From IMG/VR virus record IMGVR_UViG_3300023179_000086, positions 9,400 to 73,399 of that record: DNA of 64,000 nt. One strand, given 5' to 3'. The notes beneath the pieces are model-generated. The model ran no database searches and was not told the origin of the DNA. It saw nothing but the letters and a program-made list of their open reading frames with translations. Origin of the DNA: a virus. Made by a program: the position numbers and the translations under genes. Of this stretch, positions 56,821 to 63,829 are shown piece by piece; position 1 is the stretch's first letter, and each line of letters starts with the position of its first letter.

Positions 56821-57536
56821 CCTACAAAAAAACATGTATTATTTGTACGCCGAGATCAGGTAGTCAATTATGTGAAAAATTAATTCAACAAATATCACCT
56901 AATACTGTTTTGTTAGGTGAATATTTCGAAAAATGGAATCAAAATAATTATGAAATAGAACAAAATAATATTAAAAAAATTATACACATTAGCAAAAAAA
57001 CAGGTTTTAGTATTGATCCAACATATTCTCAACGATTAAATTTACTACGTGATTTAGAGCAATCACTTACGATAAGATTATTTTATTTGTATGGGTACGA
57101 ACCATTTAAAATAAAAACAATTATAGAAACTTTACATCAATTTGGATTTGAATTTATAATACTGTCAAGAAATAATAAAAAAGAACAATTATTAAGTTGG
57201 TTAATAGCTAAAGCTCATAGTGATTTTTATAAAGATAATAAAATTTTTGTAATCAATAATGTATTACAATGTAAAGTAAAAATATATTTAGATAACTATA
57301 AAAACATCGTAAATCAATTTATTTTTACATATAGGTATTGGGATAAAAATATTACACAATTATTCAAAAAAATAAATTATCATAGCATTGTATATGAATC
57401 TATTTTTAATGATTTACAAAAAGCTTATCAGTTTGAATTTATGCCTATTGGTGCTAAAACCATTAATGGTAATCATTTAGATTATGTTGAGAACCACAAC
57501 GAAGTAAGTGATTATTTAGATAAATTACTTATTTGA
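56817..57536 (+). CDS. sulfotransferase (Stf0-like)
   Basis: TPRSGSQ PAPS loop, LGEYF, LSR..QLLSW, YE. Confidence 0.75.
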   Translation: MTYKKTCIICTPRSGSQLCEKLIQQISPNTVLLGEYFEKWNQNNYEIEQNNIKKIIHISKKTGFSIDPTYSQRLNLLRDLEQSLTIRLFYLYGYEPFKIKTIIETLHQFGFEFIILSRNNKKEQLLSWLIAKAHSDFYKDNKIFVINNVLQCKVKIYLDNYKNIVNQFIFTYRYWDKNITQLFKKINYHSIVYESIFNDLQKAYQFEFMPIGAKTINGNHLDYVENHNEVSDYLDKLLI

Positions 57537-57561
57537 CAGCCAACTAATTGTTTGCTATAGT
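57533..57561 (+). promoter_or_regulatory. sigma70-type promoter for tRNA(CAT)
   Basis: TTGACA-17-TATAGT with TG extension. Confidence 0.75.
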
Positions 57562-57573
57562 TCGTTTCACTTT

Positions 57574-57652
<79 letters not shown>

Positions 57653-57741
57653 AAAGTAGTAAAAAATGTAAATAATGTGGCTTTTTTATATGGTTTTTTT
57701 GCAAATGTATAAATAACCATACAATAAAGTAACAAAAGTAG

Positions 57742-57770
57742 TTGACAAAAAAAAATTTATAAGGTAAGGT
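57742..57770 (+). promoter_or_regulatory. sigma70-type promoter of the tRNA array
   Basis: TTGACA-17-TAAGGT; predicted start at or next to ATG 57778. Confidence 0.7.
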
Positions 57771-57777
57771 AACAAAC

Positions 57778-57894
57778 ATGCAACATCTCAGAAACATTAT
57801 GTGTTTAGTAAAAGGTACGCAACCAACATGGTGTGCGTTTCCCTATGCTTGCTCATTTAGTTCTGAGGATAATAGGGGGTTGGGTTCAGTCTAA
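57778..57894 (+). CDS. putative attenuator leader peptide (38 aa, missed by ORF track)
   Basis: MQHLRNIMCLVKGTQPTWCAFPYACSFSSEDNRGLGSV; 3' end overlaps the antiterminator arm. Confidence 0.7.
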   Translation: MQHLRNIMCLVKGTQPTWCAFPYACSFSSEDNRGLGSV

Positions 57895-57926
57895 TCACAG
57901 TTTGTTTATAAGATTAAATTGAACCC
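57882..57926 (+). promoter_or_regulatory. antiterminator hairpin
   Basis: GGGTTCAGTCTAATC (57882-57896) pairs at 14 of 15 positions with GATTAAATTGAACCC (57912-57926). Confidence 0.7.
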
Positions 57927-57956
57927 TAGGAATAAACCCCTAGGGTTTTTTGTTTT
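57922..57956 (+). terminator. intrinsic terminator (attenuator)
   Basis: AACCCTAGG-8 nt-CCTAGGGTT-TTTTGTTTT. Confidence 0.85.
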
Positions 57957-57957
57957 A

Positions 57958-58121
57958 CGTGTGTGAGAAACGAGGTCTCAGTGGTGCACGATAAACATGC
58001 CACGAACGGTCGGAGTCTCGGTATGAAACTGTTGGCGATAACACAGGAGTAAGATGAGCAAGTGGGGGATAGCCCCACTACATTCTTAAAATAATTGGTT
58101 TACAGTTTTTTTAAGAATGTA
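57958..58121 (+). ncRNA. candidate structured RNA
   Basis: GC-elevated non-coding tract; stems TGAGA/TCTCA, GTGGTG/TGCCAC, CTGT/ACAG, AGTGGGG/CCCCACT, TACATTCTTAAAA/TTTTAAGAATGTA. Confidence 0.5.
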
Positions 58122-58135
58122 ATATTGGTATCTAG

Positions 58136-58215
58136 GCATCGTTGGCTGAGTGGTCTAAAGCAATCGTCTGCAAAACGATTTATAACCGCAGGTTCAAATC
58201 CTGCACGATGCTCCA
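58136..58215 (+). tRNA. tRNA-Cys(GCA)
   Basis: GCATCGT/ACGATGC, loop CTGCAAA, U discriminator, CCA. Confidence 0.9.
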
Positions 58216-58223
58216 ATAAAAAT

Positions 58224-58299
58224 GTATCGCTAGCTCAATTGGCAGAGCAGTGGCCTCCAAAGCCAAAGGTTCAGGGTTCGACTCCTTGGCGGTACGCCA
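58224..58299 (+). tRNA. tRNA-Trp(CCA)
   Basis: GTATCGC/GCGGTAC, loop CTCCAAA, CCA. Confidence 0.9.
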
Positions 58300-58320
58300 A
58301 TTTATATAAATACTATAATC

Positions 58321-58815
58321 ATGCGTATTAAAGAATTTATTACAGAATCATCCGATAGAAAAATTGGTAAATTAATTGGTGGACAATTGTATGTGCATAA
58401 AGATTACGTTAATTCACCATTACTAAAACGTGAAATACCTTTATCATGGTATAAACTTGCTGCAAGTAAATTGCCATCTGATTTTGACTATACAGTTGTA
58501 CGTTATGACCTTAAAGATGCTTCTATTGCTTTCATATCATCACCTGATTTTGATACAGCAGATGAACCAACTGTTGGCACATCCATTAAAGTGACTAGAG
58601 ATGGTGACGTTAAAATTACAAAACCATTAGCTGATCCTTGGATATGGCATCACAAATGGGAATGGGTTGGTGATGATTATACAGGTTTTGATGTAGAACA
58701 AAGTAAAGCACGATCACAAAAATGGAAATCCATTGTGGGTGTTGATAAATCTGTTTCTTCTAGAATAGGTAAGAAAAGTTATTGGGATCGTGAAATTGTC
58801 CCTAAAATAAAATAA
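58321..58815 (+). CDS. late protein resembling a domain of DNA phosphorothioation-associated methyltransferases
   Basis: GKLIGGQLYVH..FISSPDFDTADEP..S..PWIWHHK..V..DY; TATAAATA at 58305; family call from memory. Confidence 0.6.
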   Translation: MRIKEFITESSDRKIGKLIGGQLYVHKDYVNSPLLKREIPLSWYKLAASKLPSDFDYTVVRYDLKDASIAFISSPDFDTADEPTVGTSIKVTRDGDVKITKPLADPWIWHHKWEWVGDDYTGFDVEQSKARSQKWKSIVGVDKSVSSRIGKKSYWDREIVPKIK

Positions 58816-58904
58816 GGAGGGGCAACCCGATTGGTGACGGTACCTGTCTTGAAAACAGATAGATCGCTGATGCGATTGGAGTTCGACTCCGCCTCCCTCC
58901 GCCA
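58816..58904 (+). tRNA. tRNA-Ser(TGA), T-arm degenerate
   Basis: GGAGGGG/TCCCTCC, loop CTTGAAA, long variable arm, G discriminator, CCA; T-stem pairs poorly. Confidence 0.7.
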
Positions 58905-58916
58905 ATAAATAATAAC

Positions 58917-59051
58917 ATGACAATGTGGCAACTTCATCTTTATCATGGTGCTTGGTTAGCTCTATTAATTATTGTAGGTGCATTAACCTATTGGTGGGTA
59001 TCATTACTCATATTCATAGCAATTTTTATATACGCATTTGTATTTGCTTAA
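58917..59051 (+). CDS. small hydrophobic membrane protein (missed by ORF track)
   Basis: MTMWQLHLYHGAWLALLIIVGALTYWWVSLLIFIAIFIYAFVFA; AATAAATA upstream; fills the gap between two tRNAs. Confidence 0.55.
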   Translation: MTMWQLHLYHGAWLALLIIVGALTYWWVSLLIFIAIFIYAFVFA

Positions 59052-59054
59052 ATA

Positions 59055-59131
59055 CTGATTGTAGCTCAGCAGGATAGAGCAATGGATTTCTAATCCATTG
59101 GTCGGGGGTTCGAATCCCTTCAGTCAGGCCA
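59055..59131 (+). tRNA. tRNA-Arg(TCT)
   Basis: CTGATTG/CAGTCAG, stem ATGGA/TCCAT, loop TTTCTAA, CCA. Confidence 0.9.
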
Positions 59132-59147
59132 CATAAAAAGATAATTT

Positions 59148-59241
59148 GGAACGTTGACCGAGAGGCTGAAGGTACTTTCCTGCTAAGAAAGCATCGGGGC
59201 TACAACCCTGATCGTTGGTTCGAATCCAACACGTTCCGCCA
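59148..59241 (+). tRNA. tRNA-Ser(GCT)
   Basis: GGAACGT/ACGTTCC, loop CTGCTAA, long variable arm, CCA. Confidence 0.92.
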
Positions 59242-59280
59242 AAAAATTATAGTGTATAAAATATCTATAAATAAAAATAT

Positions 59281-59353
59281 TCCAATGTAGCTCAGTCGGT
59301 AGAGCAGCAGACTGTTAATCTGTTGGTCCGTGGTTCGAACCCACGCATTGGAG
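59281..59353 (+). tRNA. tRNA-Asn(GTT), no encoded CCA
   Basis: TCCAATG/CATTGGA, loop CTGTTAA; followed by CAC rather than CCA. Confidence 0.88.
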
Positions 59354-59363
59354 CACAAGAGCA

Positions 59364-59463
59364 ATGTCGAGGCTCAAACAAGATGAATGGTTGGTATTAC
59401 CTAAAAAACCAAAAGTCTTGACGACATATGTAGATTCGGGGGCTAAAAGCCTACCGAATCTAC
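59364..59463 (+). ncRNA. candidate structured RNA
   Basis: Nested stems ATGTCG/CGACAT, CAAGAT/GTCTTG, TGGTT/AACCA, then GTAGATTCGG/CCGAATCTAC. Confidence 0.5.
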
Positions 59464-59487
59464 TTCTAGATTATATATTGTAAATTA

Positions 59488-59937
59488 ATGAAAACCGTAC
59501 CAATAATTCAATCACGTCAATGTAATGGATGTTCATGTTGTTGCGAAGGATTCTTAAACGCAAAAATTTACGGTTTTAACATGAGTTTAAATGATGGTCC
59601 ATGTAGGTTTTTGATTAGAGACAAATGTGGTATCTATCCCGTAAGACCTGAATTATGCAAAAAGTTTTTATGTGGATGGAGAGAAAATACATCTTTTCCC
59701 GAATTTATGAAACCAAATTTAAGTAACATTATTCTTTTAAATAAATATATTGAAAACTTTTTTTACTATCGAATGGTTAAATGCAACATAAAAATTAAAC
59801 AAGAAGTTTATAATTGGGCTGAACAAGAATCAATGAATGGAAAACATTTTATTGGTTATGATAATGATGGTAATCCATTAATTTATTCAACAAGCGATGA
59901 GTTTAAGAAGTTAATTGAAGATAAAGGATTATTATGA
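59488..59937 (+). CDS. YkgJ-like CxxCxxCC metal-binding protein
   Basis: CNGCSCCC..PCRFL..CGIY..RP..CKKF.C. Confidence 0.8.
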   Translation: MKTVPIIQSRQCNGCSCCCEGFLNAKIYGFNMSLNDGPCRFLIRDKCGIYPVRPELCKKFLCGWRENTSFPEFMKPNLSNIILLNKYIENFFYYRMVKCNIKIKQEVYNWAEQESMNGKHFIGYDNDGNPLIYSTSDEFKKLIEDKGLL

Positions 59938-60290
59938 CACATTATTTTGGGTATCATCTTTTATTGGATTGTAGTGGATGCGAGAATATTAATGACCGCA
60001 TTAATATCTATAATTGGATAAAATATTTGGTGCCCACCATTGACATGGTTGCCGCAGGTGAACCATATCTTGAATATTTACTTGAAGGTGATCCAAAACA
60101 AGGATACACATTGATGCAAGCAATCACCACGAGTAGTATTACCGCACATTTTATGGAACTTGATGGTACTGCTTACATTGATATTTTTAGTTGTAAAACA
60201 TTTGATGTAGATTTGGCACAGAAGGTTATCCAAAATTATTTCAATCCAAAGAAAATTCGTGTAAATTATCTTACACGTCATGCAGATTAA
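59934..60290 (+). CDS. speD: S-adenosylmethionine decarboxylase family proenzyme
   Basis: GYHLLLD..GYT..ITTSSITAHF..YIDIFSCK.FD. Confidence 0.85.
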   Translation: MTHYFGYHLLLDCSGCENINDRINIYNWIKYLVPTIDMVAAGEPYLEYLLEGDPKQGYTLMQAITTSSITAHFMELDGTAYIDIFSCKTFDVDLAQKVIQNYFNPKKIRVNYLTRHAD

Positions 60291-60295
60291 AACAC

Positions 60296-60378
60296 GCTGA
60301 AGTCGCATAGTGGCAATTGCACCTGATTTGTAATCAGGCCCGAAAGGTACGTGAGTTCGAGTCTCTCCTTCAGCACCA
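60296..60378 (+). tRNA. tRNA-Thr(TGT) with enlarged variable arm
   Basis: GCTGAAG/CTTCAGC, stem CCTGA/TCAGG, loop TTTGTAA, CCA. Confidence 0.85.
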
Positions 60379-60395
60379 ACCTAACTTTTATAACT

Positions 60396-60917
60396 ATGAA
60401 CATCACTGAAAAACGTGGTATGCAAGGTACGCTCAAAGTGTTTGACCGTACTGACCATGACACCTATGATACTAAAGGTAAACAAGCATTTATTAAATAC
60501 TTAGATGGATTTTTACCTAAACATTTAAAGACTATAGAAAACCCTGACCAACATGGTATTGACTTATTAACCATTGATAAAAATACCAATTTAGTTGTGC
60601 AAACATGGGAAATAGAAGTGCGTTATGGTAATTGGAAAAATGATACACCATTCCCATTTGATGAAATCAACTGTATTGAACGTAAAGATCATCAGTGGCG
60701 TAAAAGCAACGAATACTTGAAAAAAATTCCACATAAGATTGCTGATAATCATGAAGTATGTTATGTACAACTTAACGCAATTTGTACAAGGGCAGTGTTG
60801 ATTGATAGTCAATTAATTTTGCAATACCCACTTAAGCCATGGGCTAATCGTAAAAGTGATGGTGAATATGTACGACAAGTACCTGTTGCAAAAACCATAC
60901 AAATAAAAATTGCTTGA
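60396..60917 (+). CDS. hypothetical protein, possible PD-(D/E)XK fold
   Basis: ENPD.HGIDLL..WEIEVR; start moved past the tRNA. Confidence 0.7.
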   Translation: MNITEKRGMQGTLKVFDRTDHDTYDTKGKQAFIKYLDGFLPKHLKTIENPDQHGIDLLTIDKNTNLVVQTWEIEVRYGNWKNDTPFPFDEINCIERKDHQWRKSNEYLKKIPHKIADNHEVCYVQLNAICTRAVLIDSQLILQYPLKPWANRKSDGEYVRQVPVAKTIQIKIA

Positions 60918-60942
60918 CAGCATATCCTAATTTTGCTAATAT
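60914..60942 (+). promoter_or_regulatory. sigma70-type promoter
   Basis: TTGACA-17-TAATAT with TG extension. Confidence 0.7.
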
Positions 60943-60974
60943 TTCTCTGTTGACAACGAAACGGAGATTATTAA

Positions 60975-61286
60975 ATGAGTATCGTAACTATCAAGTTAGC
61001 TCCCCAAGAAGTTTGTAGGGAGTTTTATTTCGCTAAAAATAGAATCGGATTGGTCAGAGCGAACAAAGATTTTTATACACCATGCCCACCATTTTTCTCT
61101 TCTAGAGATGGTACAAATGCTGCTGAAGATGCGTTTGACCTTTCTAACAACCCATATCGTCAAGAAGAACGTATGGATGTTATTGGACGGGTTAGGTCGC
61201 TCAGTGTGGGTGATATTGTGGAAGTGGAAGTAAACGGTAAGTATGATGAATTCTTGTGCGATAGTTTTGGTTGGATAAAACTGTAA
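60975..61286 (+). CDS. YodL-like protein
   Basis: RSLSVGDIV..CDSFGW. Confidence 0.7.
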   Translation: MSIVTIKLAPQEVCREFYFAKNRIGLVRANKDFYTPCPPFFSSRDGTNAAEDAFDLSNNPYRQEERMDVIGRVRSLSVGDIVEVEVNGKYDEFLCDSFGWIKL

Positions 61287-61296
61287 GGAGTTAAAA

Positions 61297-61545
61297 ATGA
61301 TACCTCAGTACACAATCAATGCCATTAACAATTATGTTGAAAATGGCATTATTCCAGGTGGTTTCCTCAAAGCAGTATTAACCAACGATTTGTTTGGTGC
61401 TTTAGCTCATGCTGATTCAAGTAATAAAGAAGCATTGTCTGAAATTTGCCAATATATTTACAATGAAATTCCTGCAAATTGTTGGGGTAGCAAAGAAATA
61501 CTTTTGAAGTATTCCAAATCAAAATTAGTTGACAACGTATCCTAA
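61297..61545 (+). CDS. hypothetical phage protein
   Basis: TAAGGAG RBS; PGGFLKAVLTNDL..CWGS. Confidence 0.8.
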   Translation: MIPQYTINAINNYVENGIIPGGFLKAVLTNDLFGALAHADSSNKEALSEICQYIYNEIPANCWGSKEILLKYSKSKLVDNVS

Positions 61546-61557
61546 TTAACATATAAT
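61529..61557 (+). promoter_or_regulatory. sigma70-type promoter
   Basis: TTGACA-17-TATAAT. Confidence 0.85.
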
Positions 61558-61581
61558 AATCTCTGTTGATAGGAGATTGAT

Positions 61582-62058
61582 ATGCGATTAAATAAAGATT
61601 TCTACAACAGCCCTGTTACGGTAACTAGCATGAGAGCAGATAATTGCTCTTATGTACAAACAGACGGTGGACGGTCTGAAAGCGGATTTACAGTTGGTAA
61701 GAAACAAAAGCGTGATTGTGTACCACGAGCCATTGCAATATTATTAAACAAGCCATATAAAAAAGTATGGGGAGATTTATATGAGCGACAGTATAAAGCG
61801 GGATATGATTTTAATCCTGACAAAGGTGTTATTACTCATGTTTGGCAAAATTATCTTGCTGAACATGGTTACAAATATTTTTGTGTAAAGAAGTCAAGAA
61901 AATATGTATTACCTAAAGACATACCAATGGGTAAAGTTTTACTACATACAAGGGGGCATATTGCCGCTTGTATTGATCATACGATTTATGACAATTGGGA
62001 TAGTCGTACTAAAAAAAGTAAGCCACGTAAATTATATGGTTATGTAGTTATTGAGTAA
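61582..62058 (+). CDS. hypothetical protein, possible papain-like fold
   Basis: DGGR..DCVPRAIA..GHIAA.ID..IYDNWDS. Confidence 0.7.
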   Translation: MRLNKDFYNSPVTVTSMRADNCSYVQTDGGRSESGFTVGKKQKRDCVPRAIAILLNKPYKKVWGDLYERQYKAGYDFNPDKGVITHVWQNYLAEHGYKYFCVKKSRKYVLPKDIPMGKVLLHTRGHIAACIDHTIYDNWDSRTKKSKPRKLYGYVVIE

Positions 62059-62060
62059 AT

Positions 62061-62149
62061 GGGTGGTGCCCCCTACGGCGGTCTGTAAAACCGTTGGCAT
62101 TGTAAAGTAGGGAAGTTGCCTCGTGGAGCGTTACCATCACTACCCACCA
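62061..62149 (+). ncRNA. atypical tRNA-Tyr(GTA)-like RNA lacking a D-arm
   Basis: GGGTGGT/ACTACCC-A-CCA, stem GCGGT/ACCGT with loop CTGTAAA, non-canonical T-loop AGCGTTA. Confidence 0.7.
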
Positions 62150-62208
62150 TAAATTCGTGATTCTGTCACCATTAAATATTATTTTATATCAAATATTTTA
62201 TAAATATA

Positions 62209-62407
62209 GAACCTCGGTTTACACTTTTCCCGTTAGTACAAAGTGGGTATTGATATTTCCAAAATATCACGGTGCTTATGATCTACCGCAAAACCCGCCA
62301 TATGGGTGCATGAAAAATCATAGGAGGATACGATACCTTCCATATAAAACATCGTTGAGACAGGGTAAACAACTCAGTTTAGGGCTAATGAGGGTTAGTA
62401 GCTAAAC
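62209..62407 (+). ncRNA. structured ncRNA, possibly manA-motif-like
   Basis: TATAAATA just upstream; stems CACTTT/AAAGTG, TGATATTT/AAATATCA, TATGAT/ATCATA, GTTTAC/GTAAAC, GTTTAG/CTAAAC; family name from memory only. Confidence 0.5.
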
Positions 62408-62422
62408 ACTAATTTAAGTTTT

Positions 62423-62481
62423 AGGATGCTAACAGCAAATAAAAACATCAAACTGCTAATTTGAACCGTTAAATGCATCCT
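62423..62481 (+). ncRNA. small RNA presenting a Ser(GCT)-type anticodon stem-loop
   Basis: AGGATGC/GCATCCT closing stem; TCAAA-CTGCTAA-TTTGA. Confidence 0.5.
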
Positions 62482-62506
62482 GTATAAAAATCCAAAGAGA
62501 AATTAA

Positions 62507-63283
62507 ATGAATATATTAGTGACAGGTTATAAAGGATTTATTGGTAAAAATATGGTTAATAGTTTAAACCATAATCTCATATTGTATGATTATGGTGATC
62601 AACTTCCTGATTTTAAGAATTTAAATTTAGTTATACATTTAGGAGCAAACAGTTCAACGACTGAAACAGACGTAGATAAAATTTTTACTCAAAATTATGA
62701 CTTTTCTTGCATGATATTAGACTTATGTAAAACTCATAAAGTAAATTTACAATACGCAAGTTCTGCAAGTGTATATGGTAAATTAAAAGAATTTAAAGAA
62801 GATGGTGCAGTAAATCCACAAAGTCCTTATGCTTGGAGTAAATATTTGTTTGATCGGGTGGTTACATCTCAAAATTTTAAAGAAATTACTGTACAAGGTT
62901 TCAGGTATTTTAATGTGTATGGTGAATATGAAGACCACAAAGGAAATCAAGCTAGTCCTTTTTATCAATTTGCAAAGCAAGCAAAAGAAACGGGTGAAAT
63001 AATATTATTTGAAAATTCTGAAAATTATCATAGAGATTTTGTTCATGTAAGTAAAATTATCGATGTACATAAACATTTTTTTAATATTAAAGAATCAGGT
63101 ATATGGAATATTGGAACAGGTCAAACACAATCATTTTATGATGTAGCAAAATATATTGCTAATAAGCATAATGCACAAATTAAATTTATTCCTATGCCAA
63201 ATAATGTAAAGTTACAATATCAAGAATATACTTGCGCTGATTTAACCAAGTTGAAAAAATATATGAATATTAATGGGCTGTAG
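62507..63283 (+). CDS. rfaD: ADP-L-glycero-D-manno-heptose 6-epimerase-like SDR
   Basis: TGYKGFIG, HLGANSSTTE, YASSASVYG, YAWSK, FRYFNVYG..E.HKG.QAS, YQ.YT.AD. Confidence 0.88.
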   Translation: MNILVTGYKGFIGKNMVNSLNHNLILYDYGDQLPDFKNLNLVIHLGANSSTTETDVDKIFTQNYDFSCMILDLCKTHKVNLQYASSASVYGKLKEFKEDGAVNPQSPYAWSKYLFDRVVTSQNFKEITVQGFRYFNVYGEYEDHKGNQASPFYQFAKQAKETGEIILFENSENYHRDFVHVSKIIDVHKHFFNIKESGIWNIGTGQTQSFYDVAKYIANKHNAQIKFIPMPNNVKLQYQEYTCADLTKLKKYMNINGL

Positions 63284-63349
63284 GTGTTGTAGGGGGCACA
63301 CGGGCTTTGCAAGCCTGGAGGACCAGTTCGAGCCTGGTACGGTCCACCA
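63275..63349 (+). tRNA. tRNA-Ala(TGC)
   Basis: GGGCTGT/ACGGTCC with G3:U70, loop TTTGCAA, CCA; overlaps last 9 nt of the epimerase gene. Confidence 0.88.
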
Positions 63350-63407
63350 TGATATTCCAAAGTTGTGATTCTGTTAGGCGTGAGTTCGAATCTCATCAAT
63401 CACCCCA
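63350..63407 (+). pseudogene. 3' remnant of tRNA-His(GTG)
   Basis: TTGTGAT loop, T-arm GTGAG-TTCGAAT-CTCAT, CAATCAC-C-CCA; 5' acceptor strand and D-arm missing. Confidence 0.65.
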
Positions 63408-63593
63408 TTAAATAGGATATTCAAAATCTAGTATAAATTGAAATGCTAGTTTATAATCAGTAAAGTACTTTATTTGAAAATTTTCATCAAATATATCACG
63501 TATGATGACTAAACAAACACCATATTCACTACGACATAGGTAAATATGTAGACCATTTGGTGTAAATGTTTCATATGTTTCGTACATAACCAT
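63408..63593 (-). CDS. hypothetical protein
   Basis: 61 aa; minus-strand TAAATA next to the start. Confidence 0.55.
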   Translation of the reverse strand: MVMYETYETFTPNGLHIYLCRSEYGVCLVIIRDIFDENFQIKYFTDYKLAFQFILDFEYPI

Positions 63594-63613
63594 ATTTAGT
63601 TTAGGAAAATTTA

Positions 63614-63757
63614 ATGAAAATCAATAACAAAGATGATCCACTCTTTAGTATTACATCACGAGATTTAGAATGGTCTTATACTAAGGGTACAGGCGCAGGT
63701 GGACAAAAAAGTAAGAATTTTCCTGAATATAAAATTTTATCCCGGTGTGTAGGCTAG
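63614..63757 (+). pseudogene. truncated GGQ peptidyl-tRNA hydrolase / release-factor-domain gene
   Basis: AGGA RBS; ..LFSITSRDLEWSYTKGTGAGGQK then similarity is lost; frame ends inside tRNA-Pro. Confidence 0.7.
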
Positions 63758-63829
63758 TCAGGTCAAGTCACCGGCTTTGGGAGCCGGCGTGTTCGCACAT
63801 CGCAGGTTCGAATCCTGCCACACCGACCA
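63743..63829 (+). tRNA. tRNA-Pro(TGG) with enlarged variable arm
   Basis: CGGTGTG/CACACCG, stem CCGGC/GCCGG, loop TTTGGGA, extra GTG-TTCG-CAC arm, CCA. Confidence 0.9.

What the first reader, a model, noticed from the sequence alone, without database searches (positions are those of the whole stretch)
57742..57956. Candidate pan-codon attenuator: an all-20-amino-acid leader peptide gating the tRNA array
Seen: a TTGACA-17-TAAGGT promoter places the start at about ATG 57778 (leaderless). The 38-codon uORF MQHLRNIMCLVKGTQPTWCAFPYACSFSSEDNRGLGSV contains all 20 amino acids by residue 31 and uses 32 different codons. Its last codons and stop (57882-57896) pair at 14 of 15 positions with 57912-57926, which overlaps the 5' arm of the terminator AACCCTAGG/CCTAGGGTT-TTTT. 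Every downstream tRNA seen in the window has a cognate codon in the leader. ATA is absent, and the CAT (Ile2-like) tRNA lies upstream with its own promoter. Established: trp/his-type attenuation uses this geometry but with runs of one amino acid. Inference: a ribosome reaching the stop masks the antiterminator and transcription ends; a stall at almost any earlier codon (tRNA cleavage by anticodon nucleases, starvation) frees it and turns on the phage tRNAs. That would be a general sensor of tRNA-pool integrity. I do not know of a described example.
Basis: partly seen in the sequence, partly recalled or inferred. Interest (0 to 1): 0.92.

Follow-up and report, generated by a model that had tools for sequence, protein, structure and literature searches.

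The report
All-amino-acid leader gating phage tRNAs
A tiny gene that spells out all 20 amino acids sits in front of this phage's tRNA genes and is wired to a switchable transcription stop, so the phage can probably sense when any tRNA runs short and then make its own.

Summary
The window has a 38-codon uORF (57778-57894) with all 20 amino acids. A helix (57882-96 with 57912-26) competes with an intrinsic terminator (57921-57948 plus a T-run). A conserved ncRNA and a tRNA array follow.

I collected homologous leaders from uncultured phage contigs using a downstream ncRNA, flanking proteins and a 5'UTR motif.
- Of 38 distinct complete leader peptides (38-59 aa, 12 clusters at 60% identity), 34 hold all 20 amino acids and 4 hold 19.
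- Phage protein windows of the same lengths reach 20 in 0.4-7.6% of cases. The other two frames reach it in 1 and 0 of 38.
- Codon diversity and the use of both Ser, Leu and Arg codon boxes exceed synonymous resampling.
- Antiterminator and terminator both covary and share six alignment columns.
- 26 of 27 leaders with enough downstream DNA head a same-strand tRNA array of up to 42 genes.

The best reading is a trp-style ribosome-mediated attenuator that gauges the whole tRNA pool. The direction of control and translation itself are inferred, not shown. I found no published account. This scan has noted codon-matched relatives in other genomes.

The parts
57533..57561 (+). sigma-70-like promoter (TTGACA-17-TATAGT) in front of tRNA(CAT)
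   Evidence: 11 of 12 matches. Such matches are as common as in shuffles (54 found, 54.6 expected), so this is only a candidate.
57574..57652 (+). tRNA with anticodon CAT, upstream of the leader (lineages A and B only)
   Evidence: Whether it is an initiator, an elongator Met or an Ile2 tRNA was not tested.
57698..57725 (+). alternative promoter candidate TTTGCA-16-TACAAT, which would give a 5'UTR of about 45 nt
   Evidence: 9 of 12. Conserved as TTGCAA-17-TACATT in relatives, read by eye.
   Evidence: TTGACA is invariant in 5 of 5 aligned sequences and the -10 is TAAAGT in relatives. Not listed.
57778..57894 (+). leader ORF of 38 codons plus TAA, holding all 20 amino acids
57882..57896 (+). 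antiterminator 5' arm, covering the last four codons, the stop and 2 nt beyond
   Evidence: covariation
57912..57926 (+). antiterminator 3' arm, overlapping the terminator 5' arm at 57921-57926
57921..57958 (+). intrinsic terminator hairpin (57921-57948) and T-run
   Evidence: hairpin energy -15.8 kcal/mol; covariation
57954..58085 (+). conserved structured RNA of unknown family, the first product after the terminator
   Evidence: Nearly invariant across 5 sequences, with 1 indel, while flanks are about 86% identical. nhmmer finds homologues in other lineages. One stem covaries. No Rfam match.
58080..58120 (+). A/T-rich hairpin between the RNA and the first tRNA
58136..63829 (+). tRNA array interspersed with ORFs: Cys, Trp, Arg, Ser, Asn, Thr, Ala, Pro, all on the + strand; it runs to the end of the record

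Best explanation
This is a ribosome-mediated (leader-peptide) transcription attenuator at the head of the phage's tRNA array. Its leader ORF has been selected to contain every amino acid, and an unusually wide set of codons, instead of a run of one amino acid. Transcription starts just upstream of the uORF. A ribosome that decodes all codons quickly reaches the last codons and stop. There it covers the 5' arm of the antiterminator, or in the long variants sits on that arm or inside its loop. The terminator hairpin then forms and transcription ends about 55 nt after the stop. If the ribosome is held up at any earlier codon, the antiterminator forms first. Causes could be a missing, uncharged or cleaved tRNA, or starvation. 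The antiterminator takes away 5-6 nt of the terminator's 5' arm, and RNA polymerase reads on into the conserved small RNA and the tRNA genes. The element would thus gauge the whole aminoacyl-tRNA pool and supply phage tRNAs on demand.

Shown here: the conserved frame-specific all-20 ORF, two covarying and mutually exclusive helices, and the position in front of tRNA arrays. Inferred: that the uORF is translated, the direction of the switch, and the physiological trigger.
For: 1. Replication in relatives chosen without regard to peptide composition. They were found through the ncRNA, flanking proteins and a 5'UTR motif. Of 38 distinct complete leader peptides, 34 have 20 kinds and 4 have 19.
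2. Null expectation. Windows of 408 phage ORFs reach 20 kinds in 0.44% of cases at 38 aa, rising to 7.6% at 59 aa.
3. Independence. At 60% identity there are 12 clusters, and 10 representatives have 20 kinds and 2 have 19. The product of null probabilities would be 10^-19.9 if they were independent. At 50% identity there are 6 clusters, which share at most 47% identity. Random replacement of half the residues keeps 20 kinds in only 4-16% of trials.
4. Frame specificity. Frames +1 and +2 reach 20 kinds in 1 and 0 of 38 leaders and carry about 4 stops each. Mean pN/pS is 0.50 over 21 pairs.
5. Codon level. Both Ser boxes occur in 38 of 38 leaders (31.2 expected), both Leu boxes in 36 of 38 (25.6) and both Arg boxes in 29 of 38 (21.2). 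Summed distinct codons are 1352 against 1223 +/- 12. Between 0 and 1 of 2000 resamples reach these values.
6. Structure on an unfitted MAFFT alignment of 23 short-class leaders. Antiterminator: 87.9% of cells paired, 6 of 12 pairs changed on both sides, 0 of 500 shuffles reach the score, and slid controls give 20-64%. Terminator: 99.1% paired and 5 of 10 pairs changed on both sides. Columns 100-105 belong to both helices.
7. A hairpin followed by at least four T lies 16-33 nt after the stop in 36 of 40 distinct leaders.
8. Co-transcriptional proxy. With a ribosome mask at any codon from 2 to stop-12, the terminator 5' arm is sequestered in 95% of positions, and in at least 80% of positions in 34 of 36 leaders. 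In the 38-45-aa leaders this is lost over roughly the last 8 codons. With the ribosome at the stop, the full-length fold has the terminator in 35 of 36.
9. All 20 kinds are reached before the first codon of the antiterminator arm wherever the arm is defined.
10. Context. 26 of 27 leaders with at least 1250 nt downstream have a same-strand tRNA within 1250 nt, none has an opposite-strand one, and only 2 of 34 have a tRNA within 1 kb upstream. Arrays reach 42 tRNAs covering 19 amino acids.
11. The same 5'UTR-ATG motif also starts two long ORFs that match PHROG families, so it works as a translation start in these phages.
Against: - There are no expression, 5'-end or ribosome data, and the host is unknown.
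- Only one 175-nt contig in one RNA library spans 57829-57997 across the terminator, and DNA carry-over is not excluded.
- Equilibrium folds do not by themselves give the switch. Free full-length RNA has the terminator in 24 of 36 leaders. For stalls between codon 6 and stop-12 the terminator is absent in only 38% of positions on average. The window's own profile is mostly 'terminator formed'.
- In the folding proxy, 20 of 36 leaders still sequester the terminator arm with the ribosome at the stop. These are mainly the 47-aa group and the 55-59-aa class. The simple 'ribosome at stop masks the arm' rule therefore fits the short class only.
- Three leaders have the hairpin but a broken T-run (L186, L183, L141), and four more have only TTTT then CC. 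L186 and L141 also carry a TTGACA-17-TAnAAT site after the hairpin, read by eye.
- Window to lineage B alone is not significant: 16 random replacements keep at least 19 kinds in 28% of trials.
- The early-completion test is not significant for any single leader (P 0.08-0.54).
- Long-class antiterminator covariation is thin, with 1 of 17 pairs changed on both sides.
- The sequences are homologous, so the resampling P-values overstate independence.
- The window's -10 hexamer is weak, at 3 of 6.
Confidence: 0.7

Rival explanations
1. The same element works with the opposite or a different logic. It could report transcription-translation coupling or general translation activity, in the manner of pyrBI, or respond to any ribosome inhibitor rather than to individual tRNAs. 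Read-through might even need a ribosome near the stop.
For: In the proxy, 20 of 36 leaders keep the terminator arm sequestered with a ribosome at the stop. In the 55-59-aa class the stop lies inside the antiterminator loop. Equilibrium folds are ambiguous.
Against: Any short ORF would serve as a coupling or inhibitor sensor. That does not explain selection for all 20 amino acids, for both split codon boxes and for excess codon diversity. In the short class the arm overlaps the stop exactly as in trp-type attenuators.
Confidence: 0.12
2. The uORF encodes a small protein or peptide with a function of its own, or the terminated 170-nt leader RNA acts in trans. The hairpin is then simply the gene's terminator.
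For: pN/pS of 0.50 shows some constraint on the peptide. Parts of the peptide recur across clusters, such as NFTC, LKH, W and SIRG. Trans-acting leader peptides and attenuator RNAs exist: peTrpL and rnTrpL (listing and abstracts only).
Against: Identity between clusters falls to 18-47% while the count of 20 kinds is kept. A covarying helix competes with the terminator. The element always sits at the head of tRNA arrays on the same strand. A trans function could exist in addition, but it would not replace the switch.
Confidence: 0.08
3. The leader is a protein- or ligand-binding RNA switch (a riboswitch or T-box-like element), and the open frame is incidental.
For: The region folds better than shuffles (z -3.2, 0 of 200 shuffles). 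The terminator loop sequence is unusually conserved.
Against: RNAalifold on 18 leaders finds no conserved structure in the uORF body, only the terminator and the lower antiterminator. No Rfam family matches, T-box included. The all-20 property exists only in the translated frame.
Confidence: 0.04
4. It is a chance ORF next to an ordinary terminator.
For: Within one window, an ORF with 20 kinds among 51 candidates is only a modest outlier after correction.
Against: The property repeats in 34 of 38 distinct homologues from 12 clusters.
Confidence: 0.01

Closest known systems
Leader-peptide attenuators of amino-acid operons (trp and his; the multivalent thr and ilvGMEDA leaders). Established textbook knowledge, recalled.
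   Same: A short translated leader ORF, an intrinsic terminator before the regulated genes, an antiterminator that shares bases with the terminator, and the stop codon at or in the antiterminator's 5' arm. All are seen here.
   Different: There are no runs of one or a few regulatory codons. Instead all 20 amino acids appear, mostly once to three times each, with raised codon diversity. The regulated genes are tRNAs and a small RNA, not biosynthetic enzymes. The owner is a phage. No Rfam leader family matches. A 1:2 'protector' helix shows up only in some single-sequence folds and not in the family consensus.
Ribosome-mediated attenuator of Bacillus subtilis bmrCD (leader bmrB), induced by ribosome-targeting antibiotics (PMC4191407; title and start of abstract seen, details recalled)
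   Same: It works like a general sensor of slowed translation, using a leader ORF and an alternative terminator or antiterminator.
   Different: That leader is not known to me to be composed for all amino acids. It controls a drug exporter. No homology was tested or is expected.
The silent long tRNA operon of Anabaena PCC 7120, induced under translational stress (PMC8421152, passages searched; PMC10272220, abstract read)
   Same: An accessory tRNA array is kept off and turned on when translation is impaired.
   Different: Control there is by a protein repressor, TrcR (abstract). The words leader, attenuat- and terminator do not occur in PMC8421152.
T-box riboswitches
   Same: Transcription antitermination that answers to the charging state of a tRNA.
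   Different: A T-box binds one uncharged tRNA directly and needs no ribosome. No T-box match in Rfam, and no conserved structure in the leader body.
Codon-matched leader-peptide attenuators before phage tRNA blocks, noted earlier by this scan in other genomes (unpublished AI notes)
   Same: A tiny ORF plus a switchable terminator in front of phage tRNA genes.
   Different: Those leaders are described as spelled in the subset of amino acids of the block that follows. Here one leader holds all 20 and heads a near-complete array. I did not examine their DNA.

Membership tests
Ribosome-mediated leader-peptide transcription attenuators | Short ORF in the 5' leader that is translated | tested here: inconclusive
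   The ORF is conserved in 38 distinct homologues. The all-20 property and the lack of stops are specific to this frame. pN/pS is 0.50. The same 5'UTR-ATG motif starts two ORFs that match PHROG families. Translation itself is not shown.
Ribosome-mediated leader-peptide transcription attenuators | Intrinsic terminator between the leader ORF and the regulated genes | tested here: met
   A hairpin plus at least 4 T lies 16-33 nt after the stop in 36 of 40 distinct leaders. Three more have the hairpin with a broken T-run and one is cut off. 99.1% of cells are paired with covariation.
Ribosome-mediated leader-peptide transcription attenuators | Alternative antiterminator helix that excludes the terminator | tested here: met
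   It is the MFE partner of the terminator 5' arm in 35 of 36 leaders before the 3' arm exists. 87.9% of cells are paired, 6 of 12 pairs changed on both sides, and 0 of 500 shuffles reach the score. It shares columns 100-105 with the terminator.
Ribosome-mediated leader-peptide transcription attenuators | Ribosome position decides which helix forms | tested here: inconclusive
   The proxy fits the short class but not the long class at the stop codon. Equilibrium folds are mixed. This needs an experiment.
Amino-acid-operon attenuators (trp, his, leu, phe, thr, ilv type) | Runs or clusters of codons for the regulating amino acid or acids | tested here: not met
   All 20 kinds are present in 34 of 38 leaders and no single amino acid dominates.
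Amino-acid-operon attenuators (trp, his, leu, phe, thr, ilv type) | Controls amino-acid biosynthesis genes; matches an Rfam leader model | tested here: not met
   Downstream lie an ncRNA and tRNA genes. No Rfam leader hit at E<=1 in the window or at E<=0.1 in 6 other loci.
T-box riboswitch | Specifier loop and T-box antiterminator bulge (Rfam model) | tested here: not met
   No match.

The most novel reading that the evidence does not exclude
The leader is a whole-pool tRNA gauge tuned at the level of isoacceptors, not only of amino acids. It carries all 20 amino acids, both codon boxes of Ser, Leu and Arg, and more distinct codons than its peptide needs. Loss, cleavage or uncharging of almost any single tRNA species would then de-repress a near-complete phage tRNA set and a co-transcribed conserved small RNA. 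Causes could be host anticodon nucleases, the phage's own host shut-off, or starvation. That would make it a self-adjusting counter-defence and homeostasis circuit in large uncultured freshwater phages.
Probability: 0.5. Interest if true: 0.93.

Novelty: new variant of a known kind. Interest (0 to 1): 0.88.

Why it matters
Attenuation by leader peptides is a classic mechanism, but every textbook case senses one or a few amino acids and controls biosynthetic enzymes. Here the same hardware appears rebuilt as a general probe of decoding capacity that controls tRNA genes themselves.

If confirmed, it would explain how large phages time and dose the expression of tRNA arrays. That question has become sharper since phage tRNAs were proposed to counter tRNA-targeting defences (PMC10264068, PMC11555353, PMC12409363; titles and starts of abstracts seen).

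It would also give a compact natural part of about 180 nt that reports shortage of any aminoacyl-tRNA. The prediction is directly testable in a defined transcription-translation system: 20 single omissions should each raise read-through.

Tried and rejected
- Searches of isolated phages found nothing useful. The region 57500-58400 matched only tRNA pieces. A 909-aa window protein and an L170 leader had no match. The phage has no cultured relative in that collection and the host stays unknown.
- The 239-aa upstream protein gave no related loci.
- An alignment query of the AhpC-like upstream gene gave no loci beyond.
- The metagenome scan with an ncRNA pattern returned 108 stretches. nhmmer confirmed only L024, L100 and L110 as strong homologues; about ten others matched at E 8e-5 to 9e-4 over 30-40 nt and I took them for chance.
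- The genome-contig scan with the 5'UTR motif gave 3 hits (Saprospiraceae MAG, Legionella, Butyrivibrio MAG). None has a leader-like ORF, so they are chance hits and give no host clue.
- A conserved start-region to post-stop-region helix (a trp-like 1:2 'protector') appeared in single-sequence folds of some lineages. It is not recovered in the family consensus, so I dropped it as a family feature.
- The equilibrium stall-scan does not reproduce the switch in most leaders. I keep it as evidence against, not for.
- RNA runs: 4 runs were laid. Nearly all cover is on tRNA-like parts, from other organisms. Parts without cover say nothing.
The tRNA's identity was not tested.
- A resemblance of the recurrent SIRG motif to arrest peptides is only recalled. 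It was not tested and is not claimed.
- Supplementary files of papers were not consulted.
- Literature searches for a published account found none: and 53 for the Anabaena case.
Full report
**What is in the window.**
The window is part of a 73-kb fragment of an uncultured virus (about 33% G+C; CheckV completeness 12%). It carries replication genes: ribonucleotide reductase and helicases.

From 57533 the + strand carries, in order:
- a promoter-like site and a tRNA with anticodon CAT (57574-57652);
- TTGACA(57742)-17-TAAGGT(57765-70);
- an ATG at 57778 that opens a 38-codon ORF ending in TAA at 57892-94;
- a 14-of-15 helix between 57882-96 and 57912-26;
- a 10-bp G+C-rich hairpin (57921-48) with a T-run;
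- about 130 nt with no ORF;
- an A/T hairpin;
- tRNA-Cys, tRNA-Trp and six more tRNAs up to the end of the record.

The peptide holds all 20 amino acids by residue 31 and uses 32 different codons.

- The leaderless start is not settled. The -10 hexamer matches only 3 of 6. An upstream candidate promoter (57698-57725) with TAAGGTAAGGT acting as a ribosome-binding site is an equal alternative.
- The ATA remark does not hold for the family, because ATA is common in relatives.

**Is it more than chance in this window?**
Of the 51 six-frame ATG ORFs of 36-44 codons in the window, only this one has 20 kinds. Windows of 38 aa taken from phage proteins reach 20 kinds in 0.19% (window ORFs) or 0.44% (408 ORFs of the family's loci) of cases. 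Taken alone that is suggestive only, so I looked for relatives.

**Relatives.**
- The 164-aa protein downstream gave 8 loci. Four of them (L001-L004, lineage B) align with 57530-58122 at 86-87% identity.
- In lineage B the ORF keeps its frame and stop. 16 of the 38 residues differ from the window's peptide, and it has 19 kinds, lacking Val.
- The stretch 57921 to about 58100 is nearly invariant in all five sequences, with one indel that would break any frame. It is a structured RNA and is not in Rfam.
- A weak hit led to L007. Read by eye, L007 has the same layout at far greater divergence: TTGACA-17-TATAAT, a 41-codon ORF with 19 kinds, an antiterminator and terminator, the same RNA, an HNH gene and a tRNA array.
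- Patterns from the RNA, the AhpC-like upstream gene and a 5'UTR motif shared by L007 and L016 (AGGACTAAATA.A.TTACTATG, 60 stretches) brought many more.
- None of these handles looks at peptide composition, so they form an unbiased replication set.
- The 5'UTR motif also precedes two long ORFs that match PHROG families. The motif is therefore not specific to the leader, but it does serve as a translation start in these phages.

**The all-20 property.**
- Among 38 distinct complete leader peptides (38-59 aa), 34 contain all 20 amino acids and 4 contain 19. The exceptions are two lineage-B peptides without Val, L007 without His and L183 without Cys.
- The null probability of 20 kinds rises from 0.44% at 38 aa to 7.6% at 59 aa, and the mean count is 16.0-17.8 kinds.
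- The peptides form 12 clusters at 60% identity and 6 at 50%. Identity between the 50% clusters is 18-47%. Of the twelve 60% representatives, 10 have 20 kinds and 2 have 19.
- If the representatives were independent, the product of null probabilities would be 10^-19.9.
- They share ancestry, so a more cautious figure is this: starting from an all-20 leader and replacing half of the residues at random keeps 20 kinds in 3.8-16% of trials. My own multiplication of these values over five diverged clusters gives about 10^-6.
- The comparison of the window with lineage B alone is not significant, because 16 random replacements keep at least 19 kinds in 28% of trials.
- The property belongs to the translated frame. 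Frames +1 and +2 give 20 kinds in 1 and 0 of 38 leaders and carry about 4 stops each.
- Mean pN/pS is 0.50 over 21 pairs, which shows moderate constraint.

**Codon level.**
Synonymous codons were resampled from the phages' own usage for each peptide.
- Both Ser boxes: 38 of 38 observed, 31.2 +/- 2.2 expected.
- Both Leu boxes: 36 of 38 observed, 25.6 expected.
- Both Arg boxes: 29 of 38 observed, 21.2 expected.
- Summed distinct codons: 1352 observed, 1223 +/- 12 expected.

Between 0 and 1 of 2000 resamples reach these values. Homology among the leaders inflates the significance. The direction agrees with a design that samples many tRNA species.

**The RNA switch.**
- A hairpin followed by at least four T lies 16-33 nt after the stop in 36 of 40 distinct leaders. 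Three more have the hairpin with a broken T-run and one is cut by the contig end.
- When the transcript is folded only up to the end of the terminator's 5' arm, that arm pairs with the stop-proximal part of the uORF in 35 of 36 leaders. The partner lies at -14 to 0 nt from the stop in the 38-47-aa class and at -41 to -22 in the 55-59-aa class, where the stop lies inside the antiterminator loop.
- On a MAFFT alignment of 23 short-class leaders, which was not fitted to any structure, the antiterminator has 87.9% of cells paired. 6 of 12 pairs changed on both sides (for example U-A to C-G, and G-C to A-U). 0 of 500 shuffles reach the covariation score, and slid controls give 20-64%.
- The terminator has 99.1% of cells paired, with 5 of 10 pairs changed on both sides. 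Columns 100-105 are used by both helices, so the two cannot coexist in full.
- In the long class the helix is kept (86.8% paired), but only 1 of 17 pairs changed on both sides.
- RNAalifold on 18 whole leaders finds no conserved structure in the body of the uORF. This argues that the body is kept for its coding content and not as an aptamer.

**Does ribosome position select the helix?**
- Proxy for the co-transcriptional situation: the RNA ends at the terminator's 5' arm and 30 nt are masked around the P site. With the ribosome at any codon from 2 to stop-12, the arm is sequestered in 95% of positions, and in at least 80% of positions in 34 of 36 leaders. In the 38-45-aa leaders this is lost over roughly the last eight codons, including the stop.
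- All 20 kinds are reached before the first codon of the arm wherever the arm is defined. In the window that is residue 31 against codon 35. In the long class it is residues 39-44 against codons 43-49. No single leader is significant against shuffles.
- Against the simple picture: with the ribosome at the stop, 20 of 36 leaders still show the arm sequestered in this proxy, mainly the 47-aa group and the long class. The proxy ignores the bulk of a ribosome sitting inside the loop.
- Equilibrium folds of the full RNA have the terminator in 24 of 36 free RNAs and at many stall positions, including most positions in the window's own leader.

The direction of the switch is therefore an inference from geometry and from analogy with trp-type attenuators.

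**Context.**
- Of 27 distinct leaders with at least 1250 nt of downstream DNA, 26 have a same-strand tRNA within 1250 nt (first tRNA at 233-1179 nt, median 544) and none has an opposite-strand tRNA there.
- Only 2 of 34 have a tRNA within 1 kb upstream. These are lineages A and B, with the CAT tRNA.
- Arrays run to the ends of the loci. L170 shows 42 tRNAs in 10 kb for 19 amino acids, plus a tRNA with anticodon TTA.
- The conserved RNA lies between the terminator and the array in many lineages, though nhmmer does not detect it in all.

**Expression.**
One search for sequencing runs and one laying of four runs gave mostly tRNA-like matches from other organisms. One 175-nt contig at depth 3.3 in a riverine RNA library covers 57829-57997 with 20 differences; 15 of them are listed by place, and these match lineage B. 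It bridges the terminator, which is compatible with read-through RNA, but DNA in the library is not excluded.

**Comparison with what is known.**
- The hardware is that of leader-peptide attenuation. Two of its defining features were met here (a terminator and a competing antiterminator, both with covariation). Two could only be tested indirectly (translation, and control by ribosome position).
- The features that define the amino-acid-operon families are not met. There are no runs of regulatory codons, no biosynthetic genes downstream and no Rfam leader match.
- It works like general translation-stress attenuators such as bmrB-bmrCD (PMC4191407, listing and abstract start only). Its apparent purpose resembles the stress-induced tRNA operon of Anabaena, which is controlled by a protein repressor (PMC10272220 abstract). 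PMC8421152 contains no mention of leader, attenuation or terminator.
- Four full-text searches found no account of a leader peptide composed of all amino acids, or of attenuation in front of phage tRNA genes.
- This scan has earlier noted codon-matched leader attenuators before phage tRNA blocks in other genomes. I did not examine that DNA. The present family would be the all-amino-acid form, heading near-complete arrays.

**Verdict.**
The mechanism's direction and trigger are still inferred. I class it as a new variant of a known kind of system, of high interest.

Noticed in passing
window 57954-58085 (homologues, for example L007 559-688 and L016 1696-1825): Conserved structured RNA directly after the terminator. 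It is nearly invariant between lineages A and B, with one indel, while the flanks are about 86% identical. It recurs in many lineages. One stem with an invariant AACGAGG loop covaries (3 of 4 pairs changed on both sides), and blocks AACGGGCGGA, ATGAA and AGTAAAA are conserved. It has no Rfam match.
   Followed up: partly
window 58816-58900: Probable tRNA-Ser(UGA) that ARAGORN missed. Rfam gives a tRNA-Sec hit of 35.4 bits, below the gathering score of 47. It aligns with the tRNA-Ser(tga) at the same place in L003 and L004 and keeps the anticodon loop CTTGAAAA.
   Followed up: partly
L145 7914-8510, L180 85-511 and all leaders of lineages C-F: A 21-22-nt motif AGGACTAAATA.A.TTACT directly before the ATG is shared by the leaders and by at least two unrelated protein genes (phrog_14802 virion structural protein, phrog_7595). 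It looks like a common 5'UTR or translation-initiation cassette of these phages, with AGGA about 15 nt before the ATG.
   Followed up: partly
L170 8492-8564 (also L143): The array holds a tRNA with anticodon TTA, which would read UAA. The leader of that lineage ends in TAA, so late read-through of the leader stop is conceivable.
   Followed up: no
L007 783-1343, L014 468-1028; L002 832-1557: Extra genes are inserted inside the unit. An HNH endonuclease lies between the conserved RNA and the first tRNA in lineages C and D. In L002 a 241-aa ORF lies between the CAT tRNA and the leader's promoter region.
   Followed up: partly
L186 and L141, downstream of the leader hairpin: The T-run is broken (GGGGTTTCC...) and a TTGACA-17-TAGAAT or TACAAT site follows the hairpin. 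This may be a bypass promoter or a decaying terminator, yet the leaders still hold 20 kinds (read by eye).
   Followed up: no
window 57850-57852 versus L001; L001 2612-2689: Lineage B has a CGC (Arg) codon where the window has TGC (Cys). Lineage B alone carries a tRNA-Arg(ACG) right after the conserved RNA, and the window's leader uses only AGA and AGG. This is a single anecdote of leader-array matching.
   Followed up: no
L007 404-550, L016 1528-1692 and relatives: A conserved 48-54-aa acidic ORF (…DEQLD.LIREKFERLR…) with a good ribosome-binding site lies between the terminator and the conserved RNA in lineages C and D. It has no Pfam or PHROG match and is absent from the window.
   Followed up: partly
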